In this document: one piece after another, positions 2,050 through 64,000 of the stretch
How the letters are laid out: each line of letters opens with the position of its first letter
Numbering within the stretch: position 1 is the first letter of the stretch
The notes under the pieces: model-generated
What the model was told of the DNA's origin: nothing
Database searches by the model: none
What the model saw: the letters and a program-made list of their open reading frames with translations, nothing else
Translations under genes and position numbers: made by a program
Origin: a virus
Lineage: Duplodnaviria > Heunggongvirae > Uroviricota > Caudoviricetes
Virus record (IMG/VR): IMGVR_UViG_3300022592_000245
Location: 1 to 64,000 of that record
Reading direction: 5' to 3' (one strand)
Length of the DNA stretch: 64,000 nt

Positions 2050-2050
2050 A

Positions 2051-7187: not shown

Positions 7188-7399
7188 ACGTAGTAATAGA
7201 CAGCGGACAGTACAGAGCCGAAGTATGGGAGCCAATGACTCCGGGTTGGGAATTTAGAGAACCATACCCGGAAGAAGTCTATATAGAAATAAATCAGTGG
7301 TGCATGGATACACTTAAATACCATGCTCGCACAGCATATCATATATTTGATTTTAAAAATCAAAAGGATTTAGAATGGTTTCTCTTAAGGTGGTCGTAG
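7178..7399 (+). CDS. hypothetical small acidic protein
   Basis: 73-aa ORF that overlaps both neighbours. Confidence 0.3.
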   Translation: MDIDVVIDSGQYRAEVWEPMTPGWEFREPYPEEVYIEINQWCMDTLKYHARTAYHIFDFKNQKDLEWFLLRWS

Positions 7400-18645: not shown

Positions 18646-29272
<10,627 letters not shown>

Positions 29273-29273
<1 letters not shown>

Positions 29274-41446: not shown

Positions 41447-42029
41447 TACCCTGTTCTTTTAGTTTAACACAAGTATCACACTTTTTGCAAGGTGTGATAT
41501 TTTTTTCTGTGTAGGTAGGATGTCTACATGACCAAAACTTATCTCGTAAGCTAGTTGGCAAGCTGTCATATATTTCACGTTTGTTTAGATTGAGCACAGG
41601 ATAGATTTTCTCCACTGGCGTAAACGCCTGGAGTATTTTATTAGCACGAACACGGCGTTCTTCCAGTGCATGGTTCCCATCATTGGCCTGCATACCCATT
41701 GCCACTTTTACAATGTTGGGATTAGCAAAGCACACATATCCAGCAAAGAAGTTCATAGTGTCTGAATCAAACATGTATTGTTTATTGTAAACAACTGTGC
41801 CTATTTCGCTTTCACTGTATTCAAACTCGAACTTGAGTTCCTTTAGTTCTTTAAGAGCAATATCTACAGCCAGTGCTTCTGCTCGGTGTCTATTTTCAAT
41901 ATTCTTGTTATGAACATGATGTATGTGAATACGATAGTCCTTGTATTCAGGATCTGTTAATAGTTTGTAAACCATACCCAGGCTATCTAGGCCGCCTGAG
42001 TACATGGCTAGGATTGTTTTTTGTTCCAT
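41436..42029 (-). CDS. queC: QueC-like PP-loop ATPase (7-cyano-7-deazaguanine synthase family)
   Basis: N-terminal SGGxDS PP-loop (AMYSGGLDSLGM). C-terminal Cys cluster CRHPT…CKKCDTC, as in QueC zinc sites. Confidence 0.65.
   Translation of the reverse strand: MEQKTILAMYSGGLDSLGMVYKLLTDPEYKDYRIHIHHVHNKNIENRHRAEALAVDIALKELKELKFEFEYSESEIGTVVYNKQYMFDSDTMNFFAGYVCFANPNIVKVAMGMQANDGNHALEERRVRANKILQAFTPVEKIYPVLNLNKREIYDSLPTSLRDKFWSCRHPTYTEKNITPCKKCDTCVKLKEQGIRG
41474..41507 (+). terminator. rho-independent terminator (TATCACAC-loop-GTGTGATA followed by T7), embedded in the 3' coding region of the convergent queC-like gene
   Basis: Inverted repeat plus T-run immediately after the peptidase stop. 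Confidence 0.5.
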
Positions 42030-43131: not shown

Positions 43132-45504
43132 ATGGCGCTTAATGTTTGGACTCAACGCTCGGGGTACTCGTTTGGTTCGTTTCAAGAACGAACAATGTTC
43201 AACGAGCAACTACCTGTAACTAATGATAACGGAGTTACATATTCTATAATTTCAGGACATCTTCCTAACGGTTTAAGAATTAGCGATAATAATATTATTG
43301 GCACACCGTACGAAGTGCCTCGCAATACTACATTTACATTTTGTGTAAGAGCATCCCTAAACGGATCTATCTCAGACAGAACATTTACAATAGAAATTAT
43401 AAATGCAGACGGACCAGAATTTGTGACTTCTGCTGGGGAATTACCAATAGGTCCGTCTGAGCAATTATTTACATTAGACAGTACATATATCGATTTTCAA
43501 ATTGAAGTTACAGATTTAAATCTTAGTGCTACTCAACATTTAAGTTTTTTTATTTCCAAAGATGACGGCGAACTACCTCCGGGACTAGTGCTTACAACAG
43601 ACGGAAGAATTGTAGGATTTGTTCAACCTGCGTTAAGTATTAAACCAAGTGACGGGTCAGGAACATATGACGAAAGTATTTACGATGCCGTTGCATACGA
43701 CTTTGCGTTTAGACCCACAAACGGTTATGATAGTTATATTTACGATACAGTATTTTTTGATTACAATATTCCCTCAAACCCACCAAAAAAATTAAACCGT
43801 AACTACGAATTTAATGTAAGTGTTAGCGATGGAGATGTTGTTGTAAAAAGAAAATTTGATATATTTGTAGTAGGTGACGATTATTTCCGTGCCGACAATA
43901 CATACCTATCTGGAGTATTTACTGCTGACGTTACATACTTAAGAAAGCCGATATGGCTTACTGCCAGCTACCTAGGAACTTTTAGAGCTAATAACTATAT
44001 CACGATTCCAATTCAGACGTACGATACTGATAATATTATAAACTCCTTAGATTCATTAAATCCAGATCACACAGCAAGTGAATTGCCTCCAGGTATGGCA
44101 TTTGACGAAGAGACTTCGGAAATTTACGGGTTTGTTCCTTATCAACCTGCAATTACTAAAACATATAAGTTTACAATTACATCAACTAGATTTAGTGATA
44201 AATTAGAAACTGCATCGTCATCTCGCACATTTACTATTAATGTAATTGGAGAAATTGACAGTATTATCACATGGAGTACAGGTGCATATTTAGGAGGAAT
44301 TAATGCCAACTTTGTATCTACACTGAGCGTTAAAGCAGTTAGTTCTGTACCAGGTGCAACTGTATTATACTCACTAACTAGCGGATTATTACCTCCAGGA
44401 TTAAGTTTAGACCTCGACGGAGAAATTGTAGGCAAAGTTAATCAGTTTAGCGATTCAACACATTTTGGGTTAACAAGATTTTATGATACCGTTAACGGTG
44501 ATAAAATCATTACAACGTTTGACGGAAACACTACTACCATTGATAGAGTATATACCTTTACTGTAGAAGCTAGAGATCAGTACGGCATTAGTGCCATAAC
44601 TAGAGCATTTACTATTACAGTAGATACACCAAATACCATTACTTATAGTAATATTCGTGTAAAACCGTTCCTTAAAAACACCATCGATGCGTGGGCAACT
44701 GATAGTAAATCGCAACGAGATAGATTTAAAGAATTTATTAACGATACAAATATTTTTACACCAAGCAGTGTTTACCGTACAAACGATGCTAATTTTGGTT
44801 TGCAAACAGATTTATCTATGATTATCTACGCAGGAATAGAAACCACAGTTGCTGCCGCATATGTCGGCGCAATTGGATTAAATCATAAAAGAAAACGTTT
44901 CCAATTTGGCTCAATTAAAAAAGCAACTGCATACGTACCGGGAACAAAAAATGAAGTATACGAAGTTGTATACTTAGAAATGATTGACCCCTTAGAACCA
45001 AAAGGTAAGCGTTTACCAAATGTTATTAAACATTTAGGAACCGAAAATGTTAACCTTACAGTTGATAGCAATAACGCTTTTTGGAGTACAGCAATTAACG
45101 ATATGACTGTTGATAGCCAGTATTCATCAAGACCCGATCCTATTGTAACTGTTGACAGTCAGGGTTATTTTGCATCTAATCCTAATCCTAATACATATTT
45201 TCCTAGCAGCGTTACTAACTGGCAGGAAAGAATTAGTAGCATAGGCGCTACTGAAAGAAATTACCTTCCTCTTTGGATGCGTACTATACAACCAGGATCA
45301 AAATCCGAACTAGGATTCCAATTAGCTGTTCCGCTATGCTATTGCAAGGCCGGAACTGCCGACGACATTATTTTGAACATTAAGCATAGCGGGTTTGATT
45401 TTTCATTAATTGACTACACCGTTGACCGATACATAATTGATGCAGTCGAAGGTGCTACCGCTGATAAATATCTCGTATTTAGAAACGACAGGATTACAAT
45501 ATGA
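43132..45504 (+). CDS. structural protein with four or more Ig-like/dystroglycan-cadherin-like (LPPGL) repeats
   Basis: ISGHLPNGLRISDNNIIGTPYEV, ELPPGLVLTTDGRIVGFV, SELPPGMAFDEETSEIYGFVPY, SGLLPPGLSLDLDGEIVGKV. Confidence 0.55.
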   Translation: MALNVWTQRSGYSFGSFQERTMFNEQLPVTNDNGVTYSIISGHLPNGLRISDNNIIGTPYEVPRNTTFTFCVRASLNGSISDRTFTIEIINADGPEFVTSAGELPIGPSEQLFTLDSTYIDFQIEVTDLNLSATQHLSFFISKDDGELPPGLVLTTDGRIVGFVQPALSIKPSDGSGTYDESIYDAVAYDFAFRPTNGYDSYIYDTVFFDYNIPSNPPKKLNRNYEFNVSVSDGDVVVKRKFDIFVVGDDYFRADNTYLSGVFTADVTYLRKPIWLTASYLGTFRANNYITIPIQTYDTDNIINSLDSLNPDHTASELPPGMAFDEETSEIYGFVPYQPAITKTYKFTITSTRFSDKLETASSSRTFTINVIGEIDSIITWSTGAYLGGINANFVSTLSVKAVSSVPGATVLYSLTSGLLPPGLSLDLDGEIVGKVNQFSDSTHFGLTRFYDTVNGDKIITTFDGNTTTIDRVYTFTVEARDQYGISAITRAFTITVDTPNTITYSNIRVKPFLKNTIDAWATDSKSQRDRFKEFINDTNIFTPSSVYRTNDANFGLQTDLSMIIYAGIETTVAAAYVGAIGLNHKRKRFQFGSIKKATAYVPGTKNEVYEVVYLEMIDPLEPKGKRLPNVIKHLGTENVNLTVDSNNAFWSTAINDMTVDSQYSSRPDPIVTVDSQGYFASNPNPNTYFPSSVTNWQERISSIGATERNYLPLWMRTIQPGSKSELGFQLAVPLCYCKAGTADDIILNIKHSGFDFSLIDYTVDRYIIDAVEGATADKYLVFRNDRITI

Positions 45505-51370: not shown

Positions 51371-52003
51371 ATGGCAGACGGATTTAATTTTGATTTTACA
51401 TTTGAAAAATTTAAAGCATGTGTTGGAAACCCACCAAATGCTGAACACTGGTACGAAGCATTGTGCGACGTACTTCCCGACTACGATATTAACACAGTAC
51501 CACGTGTAGCAGCTTTCTTAGCGCAAACTGCACATGAGTCAGGCGGATACCGTGCAATCAAAGAAAACTTAAATTACAAAGCAGAAAGTCTTTGCCGTGT
51601 ATGGCCAAGATATTTTCCAGATGCTGCTACTGCTCAACAATACGCACAGCAACCAGAGCGCATTGCTAACAGAGCATATGCTAATCGTATGGGCAATGGT
51701 CCAGAAGAATCTGGAGATGGATGGAAGTTCTGCGGACGTGGACTTATTCAGTTAACTGGTAAGGACAACTATTCACGTTACGCACAAGCAACTGAACAAA
51801 CATTAGACGAAGCTAGCGAACATTTAACAACTTTTGAAGGTTGCGTACAATCAGCGGCTTGGTTCTGGGAAGCTAACAACTTAAACCAATTTGCAGATAG
51901 CGGAGACATCCTAACAATGACTAAACGTATTAACGGTGGTACATTAGGATTAGAGGATCGTCAGCATCATTATCAAAACGCTATTCGAGTCCTAGGCGGT
52001 TAA
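51371..52003 (+). CDS. endolysin, glycoside hydrolase family 19 (chitinase-like lysozyme)
   Basis: AAFLAQTAHESGGY…ENLNY and GRGLIQLTGKDNY match GH19 catalytic blocks. Confidence 0.7.
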   Translation: MADGFNFDFTFEKFKACVGNPPNAEHWYEALCDVLPDYDINTVPRVAAFLAQTAHESGGYRAIKENLNYKAESLCRVWPRYFPDAATAQQYAQQPERIANRAYANRMGNGPEESGDGWKFCGRGLIQLTGKDNYSRYAQATEQTLDEASEHLTTFEGCVQSAAWFWEANNLNQFADSGDILTMTKRINGGTLGLEDRQHHYQNAIRVLGG

Positions 52004-52475: not shown

Positions 52476-52735
52476 ATCGACTTTTAGCAATTATGTTAAT
52501 AGCAGTACTAGGGGGCTGCACTAGTGTCCCTGTAACAATGAAATTTCCCGATGTTCCGGCAGACATGCTAGAAGCTTGTCCTGATTTAAAACCTGTACCA
52601 GATACTACTAAATTGAGCGAAGTATTACCTGTTGTTGCAGACAATTATAAGCAATATTATGATTGTAAAGATAACACAGATAGCTGGATAGAATGGTACA
52701 AAACCCAAAAGAAGATATTCGACAGCGTGAAATAA
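52472..52735 (+). CDS. o-spanin-like outer-membrane lipoprotein
   Basis: Lipoprotein signal with lipobox LGGC (MNRLLAIMLIAVLGGCTS). ATGA overlap with the i-spanin. Confidence 0.5.
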   Translation: MNRLLAIMLIAVLGGCTSVPVTMKFPDVPADMLEACPDLKPVPDTTKLSEVLPVVADNYKQYYDCKDNTDSWIEWYKTQKKIFDSVK

Positions 52736-52768
52736 ATACGTATATAACAGCCAAAAAGGAGCGAACTA

Positions 52769-53332
52769 ATGGCACTTATAGATTCAGTTTTAAATTTAAT
52801 TAACAAACAACCAAAAGATCCGGATGCACTAAAGCCTCCAGTTGGATCGCGTAGTGAGCGTGAAGCTAAACTAAAAGACAAAGCAGGTATGGTTATTTCC
52901 ATATTTGCATTGTTACTAGCAGTTAACGCATGGTACGGTGGCAAATTATCTAGCATAGTATTAAACAATACACTAGGTGCTAACAACACGTGGGCGCAAT
53001 ATCAAGCTAAAGCAGGACGAGGCGTTAGCTACGAGATTGCATCTAAAACAACCAACGATCCAAAACTAAAAGCAGAATTCCTGGCGGAAAAAGAACGCAT
53101 GGATGCTGAGAAAAAAGAGATTGCTGAGCGAGCAAAAGCAATGGAACACGAGCGTGAGATTGCTAAAAAATCTAGTCCATGGATTGGTTATGCTTCAACA
53201 GCATATCAGTTAGCTATTGTTGTTCTATCAGCAAGTATTCTTGCAGTTAGCATGGCAATGTTCTGGGGTAGTTTTGTAGTGGCAGGTCTAGGACTAGTAT
53301 TAAGCCTTAACGGCTTATTCCTTTGGTTCTAA
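52769..53332 (+). CDS. membrane protein (possible holin or lysis regulator)
   Basis: Three or more TM segments. Adjacent to the lysis genes. Confidence 0.4.
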   Translation: MALIDSVLNLINKQPKDPDALKPPVGSRSEREAKLKDKAGMVISIFALLLAVNAWYGGKLSSIVLNNTLGANNTWAQYQAKAGRGVSYEIASKTTNDPKLKAEFLAEKERMDAEKKEIAERAKAMEHEREIAKKSSPWIGYASTAYQLAIVVLSASILAVSMAMFWGSFVVAGLGLVLSLNGLFLWF

Positions 53333-53358
53333 AGTAAGACAAACAGGAGCGAAATAAA

Positions 53359-54215: not shown

Positions 54216-54244
54216 TTGACAGGTCCAATTAAATAGTGTACTAT
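54216..54244 (+). promoter_or_regulatory. consensus sigma70-like promoter TTGACA-17-TACTAT
   Basis: TTGACA at 54216-54221, 17-nt spacer, TACTAT at 54239-54244. This makes the track's ATG 54236 a non-start. Confidence 0.5.
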
Positions 54245-54269
54245 ACATTATTATTTGGACCTGTTCTTA

Positions 54270-55126
54270 TGACTGATTATTACAATATACTCGGTGTTAG
54301 CCCAAACGCTAGCCCAGACGAAATTAAAAAAGCCTACAGAAAATTGGCTAATCAGCATCACCCCGATAAAGGCGGCGATCAAGCCAAGTTTAAAGATATT
54401 AGCGTTGCATACGATACCTTAAGCGATGCTAACAAAAAAGCCGAATACGATCAAATGCGTATGGGCGGTGGTCGTCAACATCATTTTAATAGCGGCAATT
54501 TCCAAGACTTTGCAGATATTTTTGGCGGAGGGTTTGATCCCTTTGGATCAAGACCTGGCCCGTTCGGAGATATGTTTGGGAGAAGAATGCCTAAAAACAG
54601 AGATTTAAATATCCAGTGTCAGATTACTTTGCTCGATGCTTATCAAGGTAAGCAACTCGAAGCAAATTATACATTGCCAAGCGGTCGCCCACAGACTGTA
54701 ATTATAAATGTTCCACCAGGTGTAAGTCATGGCGAAACAATTCGATATAACGGGTTAGGCGATGACTCTGTTACAGGATTACCACGTGGTAATTTAAACG
54801 TTACAGTAATTGTAATGCCCGATCCATTGTTTACACGCAACGGTGACGACTTATACACTACAATCTTTATTAGCCCAATTGAAGCAATGATTGGTTGTCG
54901 TAAAAAAGTTAAATTTATTAATGGCTCTGAGAAGGAAATTGACATCAGACCCGGTATTGAAACTGGTGTAGAGTTTGCAAGTCCAGGACACGGCTTTGAT
55001 AATCCTCATACTGGCGGCAAAGGTAGATTTATTACTGTTATTAGTATAAGAACACCGAGCATTGTTGACCCGATTATTGTTCAAAAACTAAAAGACATTC
55101 AAGATGAAATTAGTAGTAAATCCTGA
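54270..55126 (+). CDS. DnaJ-like J-domain co-chaperone (no zinc-finger region)
   Basis: J domain DYYNILGVSPNASPDEIKKAYRKLANQHHPDKGG (HPD). DnaJ-like C-terminal beta domains. Confidence 0.7.
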
Positions 55127-55613
55127 TCCAATACTAAAACAGACAGCAGTCGAATGGGACTTTGCTGTAGATACTAACTCTGAAGAAGTAGAAGCTGAAA
55201 TGGTTTCTATTATGAAAACATTACACGGGCGTGGCTTAGCTGGCAATCAGGTTGGGCTTTTAAAGCGAGTATTCACAATACACCTCGATAACCATCCAGA
55301 ATTAAAAGAACCATTTGCAATGTTTAACCCAAAAGTTATTTCAGTAAATGGCGCTCACGAAGAAATGTTTGAAGAAGGATGTTTAAGTTTTCCAAATCTT
55401 TGGTTACAAGTTAAACGTCCAATGAGCATTACTTCAGAATACTTTGACAAAACTGGAAAATTGTGTATAATAGAACTAACTGGAATAGATGCCAGGTGCT
55501 TTTTACATGAGCTAGACCATTTAAATGGAACAGTTTTTACAGAAAAAGTTAGCCAAATGAAGCTATTACTAGCTCGCAAAAAACAAAGGAAAAATAATGG
55601 TAGAACCAAGTGA
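55104..55613 (+). CDS. def: peptide deformylase
   Basis: GLAGNQVG (motif 1), EGCLSFP (motif 2), HELDHLNG (motif 3, HExxH). Confidence 0.8.
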   Translation: MKLVVNPDPILKQTAVEWDFAVDTNSEEVEAEMVSIMKTLHGRGLAGNQVGLLKRVFTIHLDNHPELKEPFAMFNPKVISVNGAHEEMFEEGCLSFPNLWLQVKRPMSITSEYFDKTGKLCIIELTGIDARCFLHELDHLNGTVFTEKVSQMKLLLARKKQRKNNGRTK

Positions 55614-57879
55614 TAATTTACAAGCAGTATTCGAAAGTGCTATTGAAACTGCTAAAAAACTACACCACGAGTACTTAACAATAGAGCATTTGCTATTTGC
55701 TATGTTAGGGGAAGACTCGATGGCCGCTGCTATACGTGGCTACGGTTCTAATCCGTCTGATCTCAGACAAGCTCTTGCAGACTACTTACAAAATAAATGC
55801 GAAGAAATTACAGTTCCAGACGTTGTAGTTAAACCAAAAAAGACAAAAGCAATTGAACGTATTCTTAATCGTGCATTTACACAAGTTTTATTCAACGGTC
55901 GTCAAAAGATTGAACCGACAGATGTGTTTCTTGCTATGATGACAGAGAAACGCAGCTGGGCATTTTACTTTATTAGCCAAGCAAATATTGAAAAAGATAA
56001 GTTTGCTGACTATCTTAACCACAATGTCGAAGCCGAAGAAGGCGGAGAAGAAGAAAACCCACGTGGCGATAAAGCCCTTGCGCAATTTACAACTAACCTT
56101 AACGAAGCAGTTAAGAAAAACAAAATCGACCCTGTTATCGGTCGTGTGGACGAGCTAGAAAACATTGCGTTATCAATGGGCCGTCGTAGCAAGAACAACG
56201 TAATCCTTGTTGGTGATCCTGGTGTGGGAAAGACGGCAATAGCCGAAGGTCTTGCCTACAACATAGTTAAGGGCGCAGTTCCAGATTTCCTCAAGGATTA
56301 TACTGTATTCAACTTGGACATCAGTGCAATGTTGGCCGGTAGTAAATACCGCGGTGACTTTGAAGAACGATTCAAAGCAGTACTTAAAGGTTTAAGTAAA
56401 AAAGGTAAGACTGTGCTGTTCATCGACGAGGCCCACATGATCTCTGGCGCAGGATCTGCTAGCAACTCAGCTAACGATCTCGCTAATATGATGAAACCTG
56501 CTCTAAGCAAAGGCAACATTAAAGTTGTGGCCAGTACTACCTGGGAAGAATATCGTAAGCATTTTGAAAAGGATCGTGCATTGATGCGTCGTTTCCAACG
56601 CATTACAGTCGACGAGCCAACTACTGAAGTTACTTTACAGATTCTTAAAGGTATTAAGAAATATTATGAGCAACATCATAATGTTAAAATCAAAGACGAT
56701 GCACTAAACGCTGCTATCAAGCTGTCAGTTAAGTATCAGGCCGATAAGAAACTTCCAGATAAGGCTATTGACTTAATCGATCTAGCTTGCTCACGTTTTA
56801 ATTTGAAACTATCGGATGATCGCGTTGTAGGCGAAAACGAAATTCAATTCGAACTTAGTAAGATTGTTAACATTCCAGAAGAACAAGTTGCCGAAACAGA
56901 AAGTCAAAATCTTGCAACATTACAAGATAAGCTGTCAGCAGATGTGTTTGGACAGGATCTTGCTGTACAAGAAGTTGTTGACAAGATTATGGTTGCACAG
57001 GCTGGATTGAAACCTGAGAACAAGCCAATTGGTTCGTTTGTGTTCATGGGTCCAACTGGTTGTGGTAAGACTGAAACTGCTAAAGCATTGGCTAAGAATT
57101 TGGGTGTTAAATTGCTACGTTTTGATATGTCAGAGTATCAAGAGAAACATAGTATTTCTAAGCTAATTGGTAGCCCTCCGGGATACGTTGGCTTTGAAGA
57201 GAACGCTGGTTTGTTGATTACACAGGTTCAAGAGAATCCAAATGCTGTTTTGCTGTTTGATGAAGTTGAAAAGTCACATCCGGATGTATCAACTGTATTG
57301 TTGCAGATGATGGATAATGGTTTTATTACAGGATCAAATGGTAAACGTGCTGACTGTCGTCAACTTATCTTGATTTTAACTACTAATGCTGGTGCGCAGG
57401 CAGCAGAAAAGAATCAAATCGGATTCGGACAACAGGAAAAAGAATATAGCGACAAAGAGCTTAACAAATTCTTTACACCGGAGTTCCGTAATCGCTTAGA
57501 CGGTATTATTACCTTTAACAAGCTAGGCAAGGAAACAATGACTAAAGTTGTTAATAAATTCCTTGATGAAGTACGTGAGCAAGTTAAAGAGAAAGGTATT
57601 AAGATTAAAGCAGATAAAGATGCTATTACATGGCTTATCAATAAAGGCTTTGATCCTAAGATGGGTGCTCGTCCATTACATCGTGTTATCGACAAGGAAA
57701 TTAAACGTGATCTTGCTAAGATGATGTTGTTCGGTGATTTGAAGAGTGGTGGATGGTTAACTATTACTGTCGATAACGACAAGCTAGTGTTGGTTGCGAA
57801 ACCTAAAACACCAAAAGTACCATTGTTATCAATCGAAGGGTTAAATGATACTCTACAAGACAACCAATCGATTATTTAA
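55597..57879 (+). CDS. clpA: ClpA-type AAA+ unfoldase (two AAA modules, no ClpB middle domain)
   Basis: Clp_N-like N-terminus. Walker A VGDPGVGKTAIAEGLA and FMGPTGCGKTETAKALA. Confidence 0.85.
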   Translation: MVEPSDNLQAVFESAIETAKKLHHEYLTIEHLLFAMLGEDSMAAAIRGYGSNPSDLRQALADYLQNKCEEITVPDVVVKPKKTKAIERILNRAFTQVLFNGRQKIEPTDVFLAMMTEKRSWAFYFISQANIEKDKFADYLNHNVEAEEGGEEENPRGDKALAQFTTNLNEAVKKNKIDPVIGRVDELENIALSMGRRSKNNVILVGDPGVGKTAIAEGLAYNIVKGAVPDFLKDYTVFNLDISAMLAGSKYRGDFEERFKAVLKGLSKKGKTVLFIDEAHMISGAGSASNSANDLANMMKPALSKGNIKVVASTTWEEYRKHFEKDRALMRRFQRITVDEPTTEVTLQILKGIKKYYEQHHNVKIKDDALNAAIKLSVKYQADKKLPDKAIDLIDLACSRFNLKLSDDRVVGENEIQFELSKIVNIPEEQVAETESQNLATLQDKLSADVFGQDLAVQEVVDKIMVAQAGLKPENKPIGSFVFMGPTGCGKTETAKALAKNLGVKLLRFDMSEYQEKHSISKLIGSPPGYVGFEENAGLLITQVQENPNAVLLFDEVEKSHPDVSTVLLQMMDNGFITGSNGKRADCRQLILILTTNAGAQAAEKNQIGFGQQEKEYSDKELNKFFTPEFRNRLDGIITFNKLGKETMTKVVNKFLDEVREQVKEKGIKIKADKDAITWLINKGFDPKMGARPLHRVIDKEIKRDLAKMMLFGDLKSGGWLTITVDNDKLVLVAKPKTPKVPLLSIEGLNDTLQDNQSII

Positions 57880-58480: not shown

Positions 58481-58523
58481 CTGTTTACGATAAATATAAG
58501 ATAACTCAAAAACGGATTAAACT

Positions 58524-58898
58524 ATGCGAATTAAAGATCTATTAGAAGGAACACAATTTAAACAAGACGACTGGGTCTCTGTTAATGACGATAAGTCACG
58601 TGAACCAAACTTTGACATTGCTGAAGATTTAGCGTTCTTCATGAATAATGATGACGATACATATCGCCGCCATACATATCCAGGAATTGTTAAGTGCATT
58701 AAACATCAAGAGCTAAAGAAAAAACTTAGCCCTGCAATCTTTGAAAAAGCAGTTAGAGAAAGCTACAAAAATTATATTAAAAAGTTTCCAATTCGTGAAT
58801 TACCAACTGAAATAGATGATAAAATTTGCAAGGAAACTTGTGATAAACTTCACGAAGAAATTTCTCAACATATCAGCGATGGAAAGTACAAGGACTAA
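58524..58898 (+). CDS. hypothetical protein with the shared N-terminal leader (MRIKDLLEGT)
   Basis: The leader motif recurs in four downstream genes. Confidence 0.5.
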   Translation: MRIKDLLEGTQFKQDDWVSVNDDKSREPNFDIAEDLAFFMNNDDDTYRRHTYPGIVKCIKHQELKKKLSPAIFEKAVRESYKNYIKKFPIRELPTEIDDKICKETCDKLHEEISQHISDGKYKD

Positions 58899-58900
58899 TT

Positions 58901-60055
58901 GTGTTAATAAGGGAACTATTCCTTACTGAGAGCGCAACTAAGCAGCCTGCTAAAAAGCTAGGGCGTACATTCAACCACCTAGAGGATCTTGTATTCTTCC
59001 ACGGAAGTCAAGGTACACTAGAAGCATTACAACATTTAAAAGAATTTGCTACTCCAGAAGGTTCTACTTCTATTCGCATGAAATGGGATGGCAGTCCTCA
59101 AGTATACTGGGGCCGTGAACGTGCTAATGGTCCGTTGATATTCACAAGTCATAACGGTTGGCTGAGAGGAGTGAAAACTTCTAGTGCTAAACAGTTATAC
59201 GAATTCATTGTTAATCAAAGCGGAAATACTAAGACTGTCGAGGAACTAGAATCACGAAAAGCATTTGCTAAAGAGTTCGCTAGTTTATATCCAGTGTTTG
59301 ATGCAGCTACGCCTAAAGACTTTGTAGGCTTTGTCTACGGAGACATTCTGTTTGCACAACCACAAAGCATTAACGAATCTGGAAACTATTCGTTTAGTCC
59401 TAATCCAAATACACAAACAACTTATCACGTTAAGCCTACAAGCAAGCTAGGACAGCGTATAAGCGCAGCAACGTCTATGGTAGTGGGTCATGCCTACTTT
59501 CCGCAGTTTGGCATGTTAGACGAAGCGCAAGAGCCCATTAAAGACTTCAGTAAGTTCAACAGAACAAGTAAACTAATTGTACAAGAACCAATTTACAATC
59601 AAGGTAGTATTAAAGTTAGCACACCTGAGTTGTTAGAAACTGAGCAATATGTTAAAACAAGAGCTAACAAGATTGATAAGTTTCTAGAAAGTACTTCTGG
59701 GCTGAGCGATCTTAAAGATATTATCTACAAGTTTGTTAATCAAACTGCAAAAGCAAAACAACTAGAATCAATTAGTACTCATAAGTTTTTTAATTGGTTG
59801 GCATCTAGTAAAGTTAGCCCAACTAAACAACAAAAAATTCATGCACTAAATGAACAGCATAATGCGTTAGACGATATTTTTACATTAGTCAAACGTATTC
59901 AAAATACGAAAGATAATATCATTGAGCAAATTGAAGAGCAACATTCTGCCGATATATGGGACACGCACGGTGAGGGTCGTGTACGCTATGCAGATAGCAA
60001 TAAACAATTTGGACACATTAAATTAGTACCTAGAAAGCGTTGGACTCCTAAATGA
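58901..60055 (+). CDS. hypothetical protein with the leader-like N-terminus (GTG start; VLIRELFLTE)
   Basis: 384-aa ORF. GTG at 58901. Confidence 0.45.
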   Translation: MLIRELFLTESATKQPAKKLGRTFNHLEDLVFFHGSQGTLEALQHLKEFATPEGSTSIRMKWDGSPQVYWGRERANGPLIFTSHNGWLRGVKTSSAKQLYEFIVNQSGNTKTVEELESRKAFAKEFASLYPVFDAATPKDFVGFVYGDILFAQPQSINESGNYSFSPNPNTQTTYHVKPTSKLGQRISAATSMVVGHAYFPQFGMLDEAQEPIKDFSKFNRTSKLIVQEPIYNQGSIKVSTPELLETEQYVKTRANKIDKFLESTSGLSDLKDIIYKFVNQTAKAKQLESISTHKFFNWLASSKVSPTKQQKIHALNEQHNALDDIFTLVKRIQNTKDNIIEQIEEQHSADIWDTHGEGRVRYADSNKQFGHIKLVPRKRWTPK

Positions 60056-60621
60056 AAATAAGCGATTTACTTAAAGAAACTACTGTAGGTATTTGCTTTG
60101 GCAGATTTAATCCTCCACATAGAGGACACGCTGCTGCTTGGAAAAACGCAAGCGAGTGTGATCATTGGGTTGTTGGTACTAACGAAAATACCCGAGATAG
60201 AAAAAATCCGTTACCATATGATGTAAAAGTAAAATGCATGGAAACTGTATATCCTAAAATTGAAGGGCACATAGTTCCAGAGCAGAGCGTGTTTACTCTG
60301 GCAACTACTGTTTATAAAACATATGGCGAAAATGTAGATTTAAAAGTATACACAGATGAAGATTGGCTTACAGAAAGTTTAATCAAGTATAACGGCAAAG
60401 AGTCCAAACACGGATACTATAAATTTAATAGTATTTCACAAGCGCCTACTCCTAGACTAAGCAGTGCTACAAGTTTACGTACAGCAGTATTAGAAGACAA
60501 TCGACAACAGTTTAGTGTTGCTGCTGGTATCTCCGACGATACCCCTATTAAAATAGAAGGTAAAACCGTCAAATTCTTCGATTTAGTTGCTAATTATTTG
60601 AAAGCATATCCCGTTAAGTAA
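60052..60621 (+). CDS. (H/T)xGH nucleotidyltransferase, NMN adenylyltransferase (NadM)-like, with the shared leader (MKISDLLKET)
   Basis: GICFGRFNPPHRGH, the nucleotidyltransferase-superfamily HxGH motif in archaeal/phage-NMNAT context. Confidence 0.5.
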   Translation: MKISDLLKETTVGICFGRFNPPHRGHAAAWKNASECDHWVVGTNENTRDRKNPLPYDVKVKCMETVYPKIEGHIVPEQSVFTLATTVYKTYGENVDLKVYTDEDWLTESLIKYNGKESKHGYYKFNSISQAPTPRLSSATSLRTAVLEDNRQQFSVAAGISDDTPIKIEGKTVKFFDLVANYLKAYPVK

Positions 60622-60633
60622 AATAAATACTTA

Positions 60634-60927
60634 ATGAGGCAATATAGAATTACGACTGAGCATTTAAATCAAACATCTGATGATGATTGTTATCTTGCAC
60701 CCGAAGATCCTATACACGAATTAAAAGCAATTACACAATTAGCAGGGCTTGGCGCTGATGCTAGATTGCACGAATTACGTGCAAATCAGGGCAGCAATAT
60801 AAGTGTAACTGGAGATAGCAAAGGCGACCTTATGCGTAAGCATAATATTAAATCAGGAACACCAGAATGGTTCCAGTTATGGTTTAGTTTACCTTACATG
60901 ACTGGAGAACCTCCTGTAGGAAAATAA
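60634..60927 (+). CDS. hypothetical protein
   Basis: 97-aa ORF. Confidence 0.35.
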   Translation: MRQYRITTEHLNQTSDDDCYLAPEDPIHELKAITQLAGLGADARLHELRANQGSNISVTGDSKGDLMRKHNIKSGTPEWFQLWFSLPYMTGEPPVGK

Positions 60928-60928
60928 A

Positions 60929-61309
60929 ATGAAAGTAAGAGATATTATAGCTGAGACAAAAGTTAGTGGACTTAAACAACATCACGAACGTGTCGGAAAA
61001 GGCGTAAGTCGTTCTCGTGACGTAGGTGGATACGATCGTGTATACCACTTAAACCGTATTGGAATGGCAATGGCAATGGCGGACGGTACTGATACAAAAG
61101 CAGTTGATAGCCCTTCAGAAACTTGGTTTGAAAAATATAACACATATCATCCTATGACTAAAGAGGAAGATAACATGATTAAGGCTGCTCATAAAACAGT
61201 ACCAACCGACGGTAAGGTTATTAGTTCGTTTGGCAAGAGTATGGAACCAACTGATACCAATATAAAGAGTCCAATTGCAAAGCCTAAAAAGAACAAATAC
61301 GGTGTTTAA
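60929..61309 (+). CDS. hypothetical protein with the shared leader (MKVRDIIAET)
   Basis: 126-aa ORF. Confidence 0.45.
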   Translation: MKVRDIIAETKVSGLKQHHERVGKGVSRSRDVGGYDRVYHLNRIGMAMAMADGTDTKAVDSPSETWFEKYNTYHPMTKEEDNMIKAAHKTVPTDGKVISSFGKSMEPTDTNIKSPIAKPKKNKYGV

Positions 61310-61311
61310 TT

Positions 61312-61572
61312 ATGAGAATCAGAGATATCATTGAAAGTGCAACAGGCGGTGCTACAAATACTGCTAGCGTAGGAACTTTAGTAAGCCCACAAGTTGCTCT
61401 AGGTAAAAAGAACATTGGTAAAAAGAGTTACACAGGAAGTCCTGGAAAATCAGGGACAAAGGCGCCTAAAGTACCTAAAGTTGTACAGCCTAAAAAATCA
61501 GACGGAACCGCAGTAAATGGACTCGATATTAAGGGTGCTAACTTATTCGGCGGCGGTGCTGTAAAACGATAA
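61312..61572 (+). CDS. hypothetical Gly/Lys-rich protein with the shared leader (MRIRDIIESAT)
   Basis: 86-aa ORF. Confidence 0.45.
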   Translation: MRIRDIIESATGGATNTASVGTLVSPQVALGKKNIGKKSYTGSPGKSGTKAPKVPKVVQPKKSDGTAVNGLDIKGANLFGGGAVKR

Positions 61573-61599
61573 ATACTAACAGAATACGGAGTTATTACT

Positions 61600-63000
61600 A
61601 TGCCAAAACAACTTAATGAATTTGCGTCAGAACAACCTGAACTAGGTAATGCTGCTGGCGCTGAACCAGCAAATGCAACACCAGACGGAGGTCATGACCA
61701 CGAAGGTGCAATGGCAAAGGCTGATTTATACAAACTAGCTAACTATAGCATGAAGCTATTCAAGCAAATTGACGATCAACAGCAATTAGAAGCTTGGGTA
61801 CAAGCAAAGATTACTAAAGCTGCTGACTATATTGCAAGTGTATATCACTATTTAGAATACGAAATGAAGTTTAGCGAATATGGTTCTAAACTAGAAAACA
61901 GTGATGTCTACAATGAAAGCGAAAAGCTAGAACTAAAGAATAAACTACAAGAAGCTCGTGAGATGCTTAAGACTCTTAAACTTCAACAAGCTGATAGACT
62001 TGATGAAGGCAAAAAGTCTAAGAAAGCAGATAAAGATTATGACGGCGATGGTAAAGTTGAATCTGGCAAGGATGAGTACTTAGGAAGTAAAATTGCTGCT
62101 GCTAAGAAAGCAGGCAAGATGGAAGAAAGCATGGGCGGCGGATACGAAGCATGTGAACACTGCGGTGGCACAGGACATGTAGAAACTCCATCTAAATCAT
62201 GGAGCCCAGAAGCTAAAGCTAAAGCTGCTGCTTACAATAAAAAGGCAAAAGCATACCACGCTGCTAGCAAACGCATCGATGCAAATAATAACGGCATTCC
62301 AGATGCTGAGGAAGGTTTAGATAAAAAAGAACCTGCTTCTAAAAAAAAGCCCGTAGCTAAGAAAGAAGAAGAATCTACAGAAGAAAGTCAAGGTTCTTCT
62401 AAGCACAGCTTTGGACAAGGCGTTTACGAAAACGAAGAAGTAAAAGGTGCTAAAAAGCCTAAGCAGCACAATAAAGAAATCAAGAATCGCGATGACGATT
62501 TAGACGAAGGCAAGGACGAAGGCAAGCCAGGTAAGAACTTTGCTAAGATTGCAAAGAAGGCTGCTAAAGAATACGGTTCTAAAGAAGCAGGCGAGCGTGT
62601 AGCAGGTGCCGTTAAAGCTAAGTTAGCTAAACAAGGTAAACTTGAAGAAGGTGTAATAGGCGACGTTGGACAAGCTGTTAGCAATTTTGCAGGCGATATG
62701 TTTAACACAGATGCTAGCTTAGAGCGTCGTAGTCCACAACTTCAAGCATTGATTGCAATGCGTAAAAAGTTTCCAGATGGATCACCAGAAGCAAAACAAT
62801 TAGATGCACGTATTCAAGCACAAAAAGATCGTGTTGCAACAGACGGCGGTGAAGTTGCAGGTCAAGGCGGAATGCCAAAACCAGTAGTTGATCCAGCAAC
62901 ATTTAAACAACAAAATCCTAACTTCAAATACGAAGAAAGCATTAACGAGTCTGCAGAACTAGCTCGTATGAAAGAATTTTTAACACGTTTGAACGGATAA
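61600..63000 (+). CDS. Lys/Glu/Ala-rich protein with a single CxxCxGxG motif (CEHCGGTGH). Possible internal virion or DNA-associated protein
   Basis: 466-aa ORF with highly charged low-complexity composition. Confidence 0.45.
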   Translation: MPKQLNEFASEQPELGNAAGAEPANATPDGGHDHEGAMAKADLYKLANYSMKLFKQIDDQQQLEAWVQAKITKAADYIASVYHYLEYEMKFSEYGSKLENSDVYNESEKLELKNKLQEAREMLKTLKLQQADRLDEGKKSKKADKDYDGDGKVESGKDEYLGSKIAAAKKAGKMEESMGGGYEACEHCGGTGHVETPSKSWSPEAKAKAAAYNKKAKAYHAASKRIDANNNGIPDAEEGLDKKEPASKKKPVAKKEEESTEESQGSSKHSFGQGVYENEEVKGAKKPKQHNKEIKNRDDDLDEGKDEGKPGKNFAKIAKKAAKEYGSKEAGERVAGAVKAKLAKQGKLEEGVIGDVGQAVSNFAGDMFNTDASLERRSPQLQALIAMRKKFPDGSPEAKQLDARIQAQKDRVATDGGEVAGQGGMPKPVVDPATFKQQNPNFKYEESINESAELARMKEFLTRLNG

Positions 63001-63004: not shown

Positions 63005-64000
63005 ATGGACATGAAGCGCATACTACAGGCGATGGACGGTGTTGCTGCAAAGCCTGTAGAAGGCGGCAACGACATGTCTAAATTTTTATCTATTATAGAT
63101 AAAAATAATGTTGAAGTATTAAACGAAGGTGCTAACCCACATAAAGTTTCATTGCCAGTTCAAATGGCAATGAATCATTATCAGGAACCAGTAGCTAAAG
63201 TTGCACCTACTACAAAGAAACCATCTTTATTAAAACAATACTTTGCAGAAGCAGAAAAACAACAAGAGCAAGAGCTTGCCGTTGAACAAGAGAAACTTAA
63301 AATGTATTCTCAAAAAATTGCTAAAAGAGTATTGGAAGCAAGACTTGCACCTGATCAAATTGCAAAACTACAAAAATTCAAACAACAAAATGCAAAACCT
63401 TTAGAGCCACAAAAGCCAGAAGGTGAGCCATTAAGCGCAGAAAAACAAGCAGAGATTGAGCAATGGGGTAATGATTTAAAATCATACTTTGATACCAGAA
63501 CTACTGTTGGCAAAAGAACACACCAAGCTCCGATAAAGCATGTTCAACAATCTGCACCTGCTCCTGAACCAGAAGAACGAAGTGTTGATGTTGACTCGTT
63601 ATCATTACCAGAACTACAAAATTTATTACAAAAAGTAAATTATTTAATTCGTGTAATGGAAGAAGTTGAAAAGTTATCTGTTCGTGCAGAAAAATTTCCA
63701 GGCGGGTTAACTCCTGGTCTTGCAGCAGATCTCGATATTAATGTACCTACTCCGACTAACGCAGAAGAATATGACGCTGCTATTGAAATTTGGAGTAAAA
63801 AATTAGAAAAATTAAAACAATTTATTGCTTTGAAAAAAGCTACTTGGGCTAAAAAGAAAACTCCTGTTTATGAAAACCAAGAGCAACAAGCTACTAGAGA
63901 CCCGCGTGTTATTCAACAAGAAATCAAAGCGGCAGAAAAAGAAGCGGCAAAAATTGATTACACTCTTGCAAAAGTAAGAGAAGTTACTAAAGAAATTAAG
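63005..64000 (+). CDS. 3'-partial CDS, helical K/E/Q-rich protein. It continues beyond the window
   Basis: ATG 63005 after a double stop (taataATGg). The frame is open to nt 64000. Confidence 0.45.
   Translation, partial: MDMKRILQAMDGVAAKPVEGGNDMSKFLSIIDKNNVEVLNEGANPHKVSLPVQMAMNHYQEPVAKVAPTTKKPSLLKQYFAEAEKQQEQELAVEQEKLKMYSQKIAKRVLEARLAPDQIAKLQKFKQQNAKPLEPQKPEGEPLSAEKQAEIEQWGNDLKSYFDTRTTVGKRTHQAPIKHVQQSAPAPEPEERSVDVDSLSLPELQNLLQKVNYLIRVMEEVEKLSVRAEKFPGGLTPGLAADLDINVPTPTNAEEYDAAIEIWSKKLEKLKQFIALKKATWAKKKTPVYENQEQQATRDPRVIQQEIKAAEKEAAKIDYTLAKVREVTKEIK

What the first reader, a model, noticed from the sequence alone, without database searches (positions are those of the whole stretch)
58524..61572. 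Five consecutive genes share a roughly 10-aa N-terminal leader (M-[KR]-[IV]-[KRS]-[DE]-[LI]-[LIF]-x-E-[TS])
The N-termini are MRIKDLLEGT, (V/M)LIRELFLTE, MKISDLLKET, MKVRDIIAET and MRIRDIIESAT. Downstream of the leader the proteins are unrelated to one another. One is a (H/T)xGH nucleotidyltransferase. Two are small Gly/Lys-rich proteins. The leader ends in (L/I)-x-E, which is the cleavage specificity of T4-type prohead protease. This resembles the capsid-targeting sequences of T4 internal proteins. The cassette may therefore encode capsid-packaged, proteolytically matured proteins ejected into the host, possibly including an NAD-metabolism enzyme. An alternative reading is a shared translational or regulatory element.
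Basis: seen in the sequence. Interest (0 to 1): 0.75.

Follow-up and report, generated by a model that had tools for sequence, protein, structure and literature searches.

The report
T4-style capsid-targeting leaders on phage cargo genes
Five otherwise unrelated genes of an uncultured giant phage start with the same roughly nine-residue tag, which closely matches the signal phage T4 uses to load proteins into its head for injection, so this is very probably a cassette of packaged, injected proteins that can be recognised from sequence alone.

Summary
Five genes (starts 58524, 58901 [GTG], 60052, 60929, 61312) begin with M-[KR]-[ILV]-x-[DE]-[LI]-[LIF]-(x)-E. No other start codon in any of the six frames of the 64-kb window matches. 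The genes are not strictly consecutive: a leaderless 97-aa gene (60634-60927) lies inside the cassette.

The tag is conserved at the protein level, not the RNA level. In 80 related metagenomic loci it heads about 60 unrelated protein families.

A scoring matrix built only from this clade was run on the whole T4 genome. Among 1,326 ORF candidates it ranks IPIII, IPII, gp24 and IPI at positions 3, 4, 5 and 7 (P about 1e-9). These are T4's experimentally defined capsid-targeted, gp21-cleaved proteins.

A T4-type late-promoter core (ATAAATA) precedes the cassette, as it precedes tail-fibre genes in the window. Homologues of the NMNAT-like cargo carry a similar decapeptide (MKSFLQFLKE) in cyanophages and were found in purified virions.

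Best reading: a T4-type capsid-targeting sequence that ends in an (L/I/F)-x-E prohead-protease site.

Not shown: the protease gene in this same genome, actual packaging, and actual cleavage. I file this as a new member of a known kind.

The parts
58490..58496 (+). ATAAATA, the core of a T4-type late promoter, 34 nt upstream of the first leader gene
   Evidence: The motif is depleted in the window (10 copies against 25.8 expected). All 8 plus-strand copies lie 11-37 nt upstream of gene starts, including the tail-fibre-like genes at 14112 and 30185. It is conserved upstream of the MRIxELLEG gene in relatives and precedes portal and core genes in related head modules.
58524..58898 (+). Cargo gene 1: 124 aa, acidic (pI 5.8), function unknown. 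Leader MRIKDLLE|G occupies 58524-58547.
   Evidence: PSSM 20.4 bits. 29 of 35 family members in relatives carry the leader. No Pfam or PHROG hit.
58901..60055 (+). Cargo gene 2: 384 aa, DUF6267, ligase-like nucleotidyltransferase with a KxDG motif (MKWDG). GTG start. Leader (V/M)LIRELFLTE|S occupies 58901-58930.
60052..60621 (+). Cargo gene 3: 189 aa, HxGH (PPHRGH) nucleotidyltransferase, NMNAT/cytidylyltransferase-like. Leader MKISDLLKE|T occupies 60052-60078.
   Evidence: PF01467 1.1e-4; phrog_395 7.8e-16; phrog_3462 (NMNAT) 3e-4. NadR 1lw7, E = 0.016. Rak2-like homologues start MKETCVL with no leader. The cyanophage S-SCSM1 homologue is a virion protein starting MKSFLQFLKE. In L009/L010 the gene is fused to DUF6267, and the junction keeps ...K-DLTE-S.
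60634..60927 (+). Conserved 97-aa gene inside the cassette that lacks the leader (MRQYRITTEH)
   Evidence: PSSM 0.5 bits. Conserved and leaderless in relatives. An ATAAATA lies only 11 nt upstream, at 60623. Its role is unknown.
60929..61309 (+). Cargo gene 4: 126 aa, basic (pI 9.5). Leader MKVRDIIAE|T occupies 60929-60955.
   Evidence: PSSM 17.3 bits. All 13 family members carry the leader. No family hit.
61312..61572 (+). Cargo gene 5: 86 aa, Gly/Lys-rich, pI 10.5, resembling an internal protein. Leader MRIRDIIE|S occupies 61312-61335.
   Evidence: PSSM 23.6 bits. Composition. All 5 family members carry the leader.
61569..61575 (+). Second ATAAATA late-promoter-like core, 31 nt upstream of the next gene
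61600..63000 (+). 466-aa protein of the same conserved block. It has no leader and is low-complexity and K/E-rich. Context only, membership uncertain.
   Evidence: PSSM -14.6. Syntenic in relatives and preceded there by ATAAATA.
63005..64000 (+). Start of the next block gene (about 414 aa; the window ends inside it), which carries a different shared N-terminus, MDMKRILQAMDG. Context only.
   Evidence: Translation. The MD[MLI][KR]xIL..[LM]D N-terminus is shared with the following 607-aa PG_binding_1 protein and is conserved in relatives.

Best explanation
The 8-10 N-terminal residues, M-[KR]-[ILV]-x-[DE]-[LI]-[LIF]-(x)-E, are a T4-type capsid-targeting sequence.

Proposed mechanism, by analogy with T4 (inferred, not shown):
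1. The cassette is transcribed late, together with virion genes.
2. The short amphipathic leader (hydrophobic residues at positions 3, 6 and 7) binds the scaffolding core of the assembling prohead, so that whatever protein is attached to it becomes enclosed.
3. A T4 gp21-type (Peptidase_S77) prohead protease then cuts after the Glu of the terminal [LIF]-x-E. This releases mature proteins that lie in the packed DNA and enter the host with it.

The cargo in this window comprises a ligase-like nucleotidyltransferase (DUF6267), an NMNAT-like HxGH nucleotidyltransferase, an acidic 124-aa protein, and two small basic proteins that resemble T4 internal proteins.

What is shown: the motif, its specificity, its protein-level conservation across about 60 cargo families, its quantitative equivalence to T4's CTS, the late-promoter context, and virion presence of cyanophage homologues of one cargo.

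What is inferred: binding to the core, cleavage, ejection, and the presence of the protease in this genome.
For: (a) Specificity. There are 5 hits and no others in six frames of 64 kb. In 80 related loci, 197 of 941 unique N-termini pass a threshold that 21 of 4,215 internal Met-12-mers pass. By regex there are 189 hits on the coding strand and 0 on the other.

(b) Cargo diversity. 66 of 341 protein families in these loci have a leader-bearing member, and in 60 of them at least half of the members do. They include NT5C, a GH19 lysozyme-like domain carrying a leader plus a basic extension, DUF6321 and NTases. Many have a K/R-rich stretch just after the leader.

(c) Equivalence with the T4 CTS. 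The clade PSSM ranks ipIII 3rd, ipII 4th, gp24 5th and ipI 7th among 1,326 T4 ATG-ORF candidates. The hypergeometric P is 1.4e-9 for 4 of the 5 known short-propeptide proteins falling in the top 7. The T4 CTS sequences were read from the genome. T4 biology comes from PMC9026906, PMC5694885 and PMC3012670.

(d) Protein-level selection. Information content is 2.0 and 1.3 bits at codon position 2 of residues 6 and 7, 0.3-0.6 bits at third positions, and at most 0.6 bits upstream. All Leu, Ile and Phe codons are used.

(e) The leader is an add-on. Rak2-like NTases lack it. DUF6267 residues 1-21 have pLDDT below 50. In the DUF6267-NTase fusion only one leader remains, and an LTE site is kept at the junction.

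(f) Late-promoter core ATAAATA.

(g) Virion proteomics. The NMNAT-like homologue was detected in virions of S-SCSM1, S-CBWM1, S-SZBM1 and S-CREM2 (PMC9602691, PMC9146016, PMC10665884). It starts MKSFLQFLKE in S-SCSM1 and MKNFFQFLSE in the homologue of SynMITS9220M01.

(h) The lineage has T4-type heads. The DNA polymerase is closest to Phosso, Atu_ph07 and Rak2-like phages. Phosso, PA5oct and the Rak2-like phages all encode the PF03420 protease. Environmental head modules carry Portal_T4, Peptidase_S77 and Gp23, plus a roughly 75-aa core protein with a leader-like N-terminus.
Against: - No prohead protease, portal or capsid gene lies in the window, in the 10 kb on either side of it, or in the 80 related loci. 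I could not tie a PF03420 gene to the same contig.
- There is no proteomic or N-terminal data for this phage.
- The closest cultured relatives, Atu_ph07 and Phosso, have the syntenic ClpA-to-DNA-polymerase block without the cassette, so no cultured phage is available in which to test it.
- The residue after the presumed cleavage Glu is not consistently small across the clade.
- On T4 the PSSM also ranks uvsY and vs.6 first and second, and neither is known to be packaged. The motif alone is therefore not fully specific.
- The cassette sits next to replication and proteostasis genes rather than in the head module.
Confidence: 0.72

Rival explanations
1. The leader is a recognition tag for the phage's own proteostasis machinery, either a degron or a chaperone-binding site. 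That machinery is the ClpA-like unfoldase, ClpP, DnaJ and peptide deformylase encoded just upstream. On this reading the tag controls the stability or folding of a set of phage proteins and does not send them into the capsid.
For: The ClpA-like gene (55597-57879), DnaJ and PDF lie immediately upstream, and a bona fide ClpP is at 2036-2671. ClpA-type unfoldases are known to read terminal tags (general knowledge).
Against: Atu_ph07 and Phosso have the same DnaJ and ClpA genes in synteny but no leader cassette. The leader instead matches T4's CTS, and T4 has no ClpA. The cassette has its own late-promoter motif. Cyanophage homologues carrying the tag are found in virions.
Confidence: 0.08
2. The leader does act in head assembly but is not removed. 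It serves as a permanent anchor to the core or shell, or marks proteins for some other late assembly compartment. The (L/I)-x-E ending would then be coincidental.
For: Cleavage is inferred only from the motif. The residue after the Glu varies across the clade. [quoted passage not shown] In T4, an Asp at CTS position 10 blocks processing but not targeting (PMC9026906).
Against: A Glu at position 8 or 9, preceded by L/I/F two residues earlier, is the best-conserved feature after the hydrophobic pair. An LTE site is retained at the junction of the DUF6267-NTase fusion, where the rest of the second leader has been lost.
Confidence: 0.1
3. The similarity reflects a shared nucleotide-level element at the 5' end of the genes, such as a translation enhancer, an RNA structure or a recombination site, and is not a peptide signal.
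For: AAA/AGA-rich second codons and A-rich starts are common in well-translated genes (general knowledge).
Against: The five window leaders share only 12-18 of 27 nucleotides. Across 215 distinct contexts the information lies in codon positions 1 and 2. Hydrophobic positions use all Leu, Ile and Phe codons, third positions carry 0.3-0.6 bits, and upstream DNA shows only a weak Shine-Dalgarno signal.
Confidence: 0.03
4. The leader is a chance or generic N-terminal helix, or a relic of 5'-end duplication, with no function of its own.
For: Short amphipathic N-termini are common. T4 uvsY and vs.6 also score high.
Against: Enrichment at true N-termini is about 40-fold over internal Met sites, across about 60 unrelated families and dozens of diverged phages. 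The motif is absent from the other roughly 59 genes of the window. It is lost or gained as a unit relative to homologues.
Confidence: 0.05

Closest known systems
Capsid targeting sequences (CTS) of phage T4 internal proteins IPI, IPII, IPIII, Alt and gp24 (Mullaney & Black 1996; reviewed in PMC9026906, PMC3012670, PMC5694885)
   Same: - A short N-terminal tag (10-19 aa in T4, 8-10 aa here) on otherwise unrelated proteins, many of them small and basic.
- The same residue pattern: T4 has MKTYQEFIAE and MKTFKEF...; this clade has M[KR][ILA]x[ED][LIF][FLI]xE and MKTFKELFES.
- Both end in an (L/I)-x-E site of the gp21 type.
- Hydrophobic residues are spaced i, i+3, i+4.
- Genes are clustered in variable cassettes.
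- The clade PSSM recovers the T4 CTS proteins.
   Different: - The acidic-hydrophobic core usually sits one residue closer to the Met here.
- The host phage is a jumbo phage of about 345 kb, related to Phosso, Atu_ph07 and Rak2-like phages rather than to the T-even phages.
- The cargo repertoire is much larger (about 60 families) and includes enzymes: ligase-like, NMNAT-like, NT5C and GH19.
- Packaging, cleavage and the protease gene are not demonstrated for this phage.
NMNAT-like 'cytidylyltransferase' virion proteins of T4-like cyanophages (S-SCSM1 ORF91, S-SZBM1_140, S-CREM2 ORF154, S-CBWM1)
   Same: The catalytic domain is homologous to window gene 3 (phmmer E = 1.4e-13). The N-terminal decapeptide is MKSFLQFLKE in S-SCSM1 (MKNFFQFLSE in the SynMITS9220M01 homologue), ends in L-x-E and passes the clade PSSM. 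The proteins were detected by MS in purified virions.
   Different: The cyanophage proteins are about 360-410 aa, with a roughly 100-aa low-complexity linker and a C-terminal extension. The publications did not note a targeting leader and left open the possibility of contamination. In cyanophages only one or two genes per genome seem to carry the tag, whereas here there is a cassette.
Long propeptides of phiKZ/SPN3US-type giant-phage head and ejection proteins (cleavage motif S/A/G-x-E)
   Same: N-terminal propeptides are thought to target proteins into the prohead and are removed by a gp21-related protease that cuts after Glu (PMC5694885).
   Different: Those propeptides are mostly 79 residues or longer (four exceed 100), have no shared leader sequence, and have a small residue at P3 (S/A/G). 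Here the leader is 8-10 residues, is shared, and has L/I/F at P3.
Phage P1 Dar (defence against restriction) head-internal proteins with N-terminal packaging signals (PMC9024508)
   Same: Anti-defence cargo is loaded into the capsid through N-terminal determinants and is injected with the DNA.
   Different: P1 has an unrelated sequence and an ordered, protein-dependent incorporation hierarchy. There is no shared decapeptide and no T4-type protease consensus. This comparison rests on literature only and was not tested here.

Membership tests
T4-type capsid targeting sequence (CTS) | A short (about 10-20 aa) peptide at the extreme N-terminus, shared by proteins that are otherwise unrelated | tested here: met
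   Five window genes share residues 1-9. Their bodies show no similarity (best E = 0.25). About 60 cargo families in relatives carry the tag.
T4-type capsid targeting sequence (CTS) | Sequence resemblance to the experimentally defined T4 CTS (MKTYQEFIAE / MKTFKEF...), with hydrophobic residues at the targeting positions | tested here: met
   The clade-only PSSM ranks ipIII, ipII, gp24 and ipI at 3, 4, 5 and 7 of 1,326 T4 ORF candidates, P = 1.4e-9. Conserved positions 3, 6, 7 and 9 correspond to T4 positions 4, 7, 8 and 10.
T4-type capsid targeting sequence (CTS) | The leader ends in a prohead-protease site, (L/I)-x-E followed by the cut | tested here: met
   The window leaders contain LLE, LTE, LKE, IAE and IIE. 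In the clade, Glu is the commonest residue at positions 8 and 9, preceded by L/I/F. This is a sequence-level test only. Cleavage itself was not tested.
T4-type capsid targeting sequence (CTS) | The same genome encodes a gp21-type (Peptidase_S77, PF03420) prohead protease | tested here: inconclusive
   The protease is not in the window, its flanks or the 80 related loci. It is present in the nearest cultured relatives (Phosso, Rak2-like phages, PA5oct) and in environmental head modules of the same supergroup. I could not link it to this contig.
T4-type capsid targeting sequence (CTS) | Tagged proteins are present inside mature virions and lack the leader | not testable with these tools
   Support is indirect only: the cyanophage homologue of gene 3 is found in virion proteomes. 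No peptide-level N-terminal data are held.
T4-type capsid targeting sequence (CTS) | The leader alone is sufficient to package a foreign protein | not testable with these tools
   This needs an experiment. The natural DUF6267-NTase fusion, which has a single leader, and the GH19 domain, which has acquired a leader, are consistent with portability.
T4-type capsid targeting sequence (CTS) | Expression at the time of head assembly (late promoter) | tested here: met
   ATAAATA lies 34 nt upstream of gene 1. The same motif precedes tail-fibre genes in the window and portal and core genes in related head modules. Promoter activity itself is inferred.
phiKZ/SPN3US-type giant-phage propeptides | Long propeptides (mostly 79 to more than 100 aa) cleaved at S/A/G-x-E | tested here: not met
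   The leader is 8-10 aa and P3 is L/I/F, never S/A/G, in the five window genes.
Sec/Tat signal peptides | A positively charged n-region followed by a hydrophobic h-region of 7-15 residues | tested here: not met
   There are only two or three hydrophobic residues, flanked by acidic ones, and no h-region.
ATP-dependent ligase / covalent nucleotidyltransferase superfamily (for cargo gene 2, DUF6267) | A KxDG adenylation motif and the adenylyltransferase fold | tested here: inconclusive
NMN/NaMN adenylyltransferase (for cargo gene 3) | (H/T)xGH Rossmann-type nucleotidyltransferase with specific similarity to NMNAT | tested here: inconclusive
   HRGH is present. PF01467 just passes its cut-off (22.9 against 21). 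The NMNAT PHROG scores 3e-4 and NadR 1lw7 scores E = 0.016. Substrate specificity cannot be assigned.

The most novel reading that the evidence does not exclude
The T4 capsid-targeting decapeptide may not be a peculiarity of the T-even phages. It may be an ancient 'packaging code' that can be read from sequence and is shared across the whole T4 superfamily: T-evens, cyanomyoviruses and Rak2/Phosso-like jumbo phages. In this uncultured jumbo clade it has expanded into hypervariable cassettes that load about 60 different cargo families into the head. Among these is a coupled ligase-like plus NMNAT-like enzyme pair. That pair would be delivered with the DNA as a pre-made first-minute countermeasure, for example against NAD+-depleting or nucleic-acid-nicking defences. 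If this is right, the injected proteome of uncultured phages could be predicted from metagenomes with a simple N-terminal profile.
Probability: 0.45. Interest if true: 0.75.

Novelty: new member of a known kind. Interest (0 to 1): 0.62.

Why it matters
Proteins injected together with phage DNA act before any phage gene is expressed. They are often anti-defence weapons, as T4 IPI is against GmrSD and Alt is against the host RNA polymerase. They are normally found only by virion proteomics of cultured phages.

If this leader is a true CTS, it offers three things:
- a sequence-only way to list the injected proteins of a large, widespread clade of uncultured jumbo phages of about 345 kb, and probably of cyanomyoviruses;
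- an explanation for why NMNAT-like enzymes keep turning up in cyanophage virions;
- a list of about 60 candidate ejected proteins, including a ligase-like enzyme, an NMNAT-like enzyme, a deoxynucleotidase and a lysozyme-like domain.

It would also offer new natural targeting tags for engineering protein delivery by phage capsids.

Tried and rejected
(1) Nucleotide search of the cassette against 50,697 phage records found no match.

(2) I looked for a prohead protease in the window, in L001, in the 10 kb upstream and in the 80 related loci, using phmmer with T4 gp20, gp21, gp22, gp23, gp67 and gp68. Nothing was found. The window's ClpP (2036-2671) is a canonical ClpP that fits the ClpA-like gene, not a gp21-type enzyme.

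(3) I tried to tie a PF03420 protease to the same contig.
- IMG/VR loci retrieved with a protease alignment share no contig with the DUF6267 loci.
- Two searches of the protein database listed no protease cluster whose longest contig is 345,198 bp, the value for the window's DUF6267 protein.
- Lookups of the two best candidates, P0312 and P0281, led to other phages.
- Walking along the contig is blocked, because only window proteins can be looked up.

(4) One gene shared between a DUF6267 locus (L050) and protease loci turned out to be a mobile membrane-desaturase-like gene, not synteny.

(5) Atu_ph07 and Phosso were checked as possible cultured carriers of the cassette. Neither has it.

(7) Sigma-70 promoter and terminator scans of 54-64 kb were at background level.

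(8) The supplement of the S-SCSM1 paper holds no peptide-level data that could show a processed N-terminus.

(9) My first single-linkage clustering of cargo merged unrelated families through fusion proteins. I replaced it with coverage-filtered clustering.

Full report
**What is there.** The region 58524-61572 holds six tightly packed plus-strand genes. Five of them begin with MRIKDLLEGT, (V/M)LIRELFLTE, MKISDLLKET, MKVRDIIAET and MRIRDIIESAT. The gene at 60634-60927 (MRQYRITTEH) does not, so the five are clustered but not strictly consecutive. A permissive regex for the leader was applied at every ATG/GTG/TTG in all six frames of the 64-kb window. It matches only these five starts. Without the leader the five proteins show no similarity to each other (best E = 0.25).

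The five cargo proteins are:
- Gene 2 is DUF6267 (PF19782, E = 1.5e-18).
- Gene 3 is an HxGH nucleotidyltransferase (PF01467; phage 'cytidyltransferase' PHROGs; weak NMNAT and NadR similarity).
- Gene 1 (124 aa) is acidic.
- The 126-aa protein has pI 9.5.
- The 86-aa protein has pI 10.5 and is 16% Gly and 17% Lys+Arg.

**Genomic setting.** The window comes from an uncultured jumbo myovirus. The identical DUF6267 protein occurs on contigs of up to 345,198 bp. The DNA polymerase is closest to Sinorhizobium phage Phosso (50%), Agrobacterium phage Atu_ph07 (46%) and Rak2-like phages (44%). The window also encodes:
- T4-type replication proteins and giant tail-fibre-like proteins;
- radical-SAM enzymes and QueC/QueD;
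- a canonical ClpP, a ClpA-like ATPase, DnaJ and peptide deformylase.

The cassette lies between the ClpA-like gene and the DsbA-like and DNA polymerase genes. Atu_ph07 and Phosso have this same block in synteny but without leader-bearing genes.

**The leader is a clade-wide, protein-level signal.**
- A search with DUF6267 returned 80 related IMG/VR loci at 46-78% identity. In them the regex hits 189 starts on the coding strand and none on the other strand.
- I built a position-specific matrix iteratively from the clade's N-termini. 197 of 941 unique N-terminal 12-mers pass its threshold, against 21 of 4,215 internal Met-started 12-mers.
- The consensus is M-[KR]-[LIA]-[RKN]-[ED]-[LIF]-[FLI]-x-E.
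- In the window only the five genes pass, at 17-24 bits. The next best gene scores 3.7.
- With coverage-filtered clustering, 66 of 341 protein families in these loci contain leader-bearing members, and in 60 of them at least half of the members do.
- Cargo with recognisable domains includes NT5C deoxynucleotidase, a GH19 lysozyme-like domain that has acquired a leader plus a basic extension, DUF6321 and several NTase variants.
- Many cargo proteins have a Lys/Arg-rich stretch right after the leader.
- Across 215 distinct nucleotide contexts, information content sits in codon positions 1 and 2 (2.0 bits at the second base of residue 6). Third positions carry 0.3-0.6 bits, all Leu, Ile and Phe codons are used, and upstream DNA shows only a weak Shine-Dalgarno signal. 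The five window leaders share 12-18 of 27 nucleotides. This rules out an RNA-level element as the main explanation.

**The leader is an add-on.**
- Rak2-like homologues of the nucleotidyltransferase start MKETCVL..., directly at the first strand of the fold, without the seven extra residues.
- In an AlphaFold model of DUF6267 (mean pLDDT 85), residues 1-21 are disordered.
- In L009/L010 the DUF6267 and NTase genes are fused. Only the first leader remains, and the junction reads ...WTPK-DLTE-SVGICYG. It has lost 'MKIS' but kept an L-T-E site.

**Equivalence with the T4 capsid-targeting sequence.** T4 internal proteins carry 10-19-residue N-terminal propeptides. The first 10 residues of IPIII are sufficient for encapsidation. 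Residues 4 and 7 matter for targeting and residues 8 and 10 for processing by gp21. Alt is cut at ITE-6 (PMC9026906, PMC5694885, PMC3012670). Read from the T4 genome, the sequences are MKTYQEFIAE (IPII and IPIII) and MKTFKEFTST...ITE (IPI).

I assembled the whole T4 genome. I then scored all 1,326 ATG-started ORF candidates in six frames with the matrix built only from the jumbo-phage clade, allowing a one-residue gap. The results were:
- ipIII, ipII, gp24 and ipI rank 3, 4, 5 and 7. The gp24 propeptide is MAKINELLRE.
- gp2 ranks 8 and 61.1 (MKTFKEFIKE) ranks 6.
- Four of the five known short-propeptide proteins fall in the top seven, P = 1.4e-9. IPII and IPIII share one CTS, so the effective count is slightly lower.
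- The top two, vs.6 and uvsY, are probably false positives.

Some relatives carry MKTFKELFES, nearly identical to the start of IPI. The clade's conserved positions 3, 6, 7 and 9 map with a one-residue shift onto T4's positions 4, 7, 8 and 10.

**Timing.** ATAAATA, the core of the T4 late promoter TATAAATA, is depleted in the window (10 copies against 25.8 expected). Yet all eight plus-strand copies lie 11-37 nt upstream of gene starts. Those starts include tail-fibre-like genes (14112, 30185), the first cassette gene (58524) and the gene after the cassette (61600). The motif is conserved upstream of the first cassette gene in relatives. In related head modules it precedes portal, core and fibre genes.

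**Experimental support from homologues.** The cyanophage homologue of gene 3, annotated NMNAT or cytidylyltransferase, was detected by mass spectrometry in purified virions of S-SCSM1, S-CBWM1, S-SZBM1 and S-CREM2. The authors wondered whether it is carried by the virion (PMC9602691, PMC9146016, PMC10665884). The S-SCSM1 protein starts MKSFLQFLKE|AAESG, and the homologue in SynMITS9220M01 starts MKNFFQFLSE|AQS. Both are CTS-like decapeptides ending in L-x-E, and both pass the clade matrix. In the first 99 kb of S-SCSM1 the top-scoring true gene starts are the prohead protease itself, this NMNAT, and a small gene (MKTFKQFMSE) that lies between virion-protein genes. I found no paper that connects a CTS with cyanophages or jumbo phages.

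**The protease.** T4 gp21 homologues (PF03420) occur in about 2,600 phage records. These include the Rak2-like phages, PA5oct, SCTP-2 and Phosso, which is the closest cultured relative by DNA polymerase. Environmental head modules of this supergroup have the gene order portal, a roughly 75-aa protein, a roughly 260-aa protein, Peptidase_S77, scaffold, Gp23. The roughly 75-aa protein sits at the position of T4 gp67 and has a leader-like N-terminus such as MKLFEMF... or MILNELY....

I could not place such a module on the same contig as the window. The presence of the protease in this genome is therefore an inference from phylogeny, although a strong one.

**Verdict.** I put it at about 0.7.

The rivals are weaker:
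- A ClpA/ClpP or chaperone tag is contradicted by relatives that have ClpA but no cassette.
- Targeting without cleavage cannot be excluded.
- An RNA-level element is contradicted by the codon analysis.
- Chance is contradicted by the enrichment statistics.

This is a new member of a known kind of system, in a distant and uncultured lineage, with an unusually rich cargo set. Its practical value is as a sequence-only predictor of injected proteins.

Noticed in passing
window 2036-2671, 54236-55126, 55104-55613, 55597-57879, 489-1340: The phage carries a proteostasis set: a canonical ClpP (PF00574, E = 5.5e-62), DnaJ, peptide deformylase, a ClpA-like double-AAA+ unfoldase with a Clp_N domain, and an SPFH/Band-7 protein. 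DnaJ and ClpA are syntenic in Atu_ph07, and ClpA in Phosso. A perfect sigma-70 consensus (TTGACA-16-TATAAT) lies at 55444-55471, just upstream of the ClpA start.
   Followed up: partly
window 63005-64000 and L001:14208-16031: The two genes after the cassette share a different conserved N-terminus, MD[MLI][KR]xIL..[LM]D (MDMKRILQAMDG and MDIRSLITKMDS). One is about 414 aa and the other is a 607-aa PG_binding_1 protein. The motif is conserved across relatives and may be a second class of N-terminal signal.
   Followed up: partly
window 60634-60927: A conserved leaderless 97-aa gene sits inside the cassette. An ATAAATA lies only 11 nt from its ATG. Shorter homologues in relatives share the motif GSNIS(V/I)TG. 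Its role is unknown.
   Followed up: no
T4 genome NC_000866: 63919(-), 19130(-), 76885(-): The clade-derived leader matrix also scores three T4 proteins highly: vs.6 (MKAYQILEGTHKG), gp61.1 (MKTFKEFIKED, 54 aa) and the DNA-end protector gp2 (MAIFQIINES). gp61.1 has a near-perfect CTS and might be an unrecognised packaged protein.
   Followed up: no
L183 (S-SCSM1 NC_070962.1) 44215-44535 and 52706-53356: Cyanophage S-SCSM1 gp030 (106 aa, MKTFKQFMSE) lies between virion-protein genes and has a start like that of T4 IPI. The prohead protease gp040 itself starts MKLIREEIEK, which also resembles the leader.
   Followed up: no
L092-L171, L184-L203 (about 220-260 nt downstream of the portal gene, e.g. 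L097:8771-9001): In environmental T4-type head modules of jumbo phages, the roughly 75-aa protein between the portal and the protease, at the position of T4 gp67, has a leader-like N-terminus (MKLFEMF, MILNELY, MNLFEVFEE). In some of these phages a 903-aa GH19 protein lies just upstream of the portal gene.
   Followed up: partly
window 7375-12795, 16030-16578, 41436-42029(-): There is a cluster of three radical-SAM/SPASM genes plus a B12-binding radical-SAM gene, together with QueD-like and QueC-like genes. This suggests DNA or peptide modification chemistry.
   Followed up: no
window 18975-29273 and 32574-38435: Two giant ORFs of 3,432 aa and 1,953 aa. The first matches tail-fibre and virion-structural PHROGs. 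Several fibre-like genes share a conserved N-terminal roughly 40-aa module, MAKQ(I/V)I(D/N)IG..NDGTGD.
   Followed up: no
L012:14287-15351: In one relative a GH19 lysozyme-like domain carries the leader plus a basic extension (MRIHEVILENFADGKKPGRKG...). The window's own GH19 protein (51371-52003) is short and leaderless. This looks like an endolysin domain recruited as packaged cargo.
   Followed up: partly
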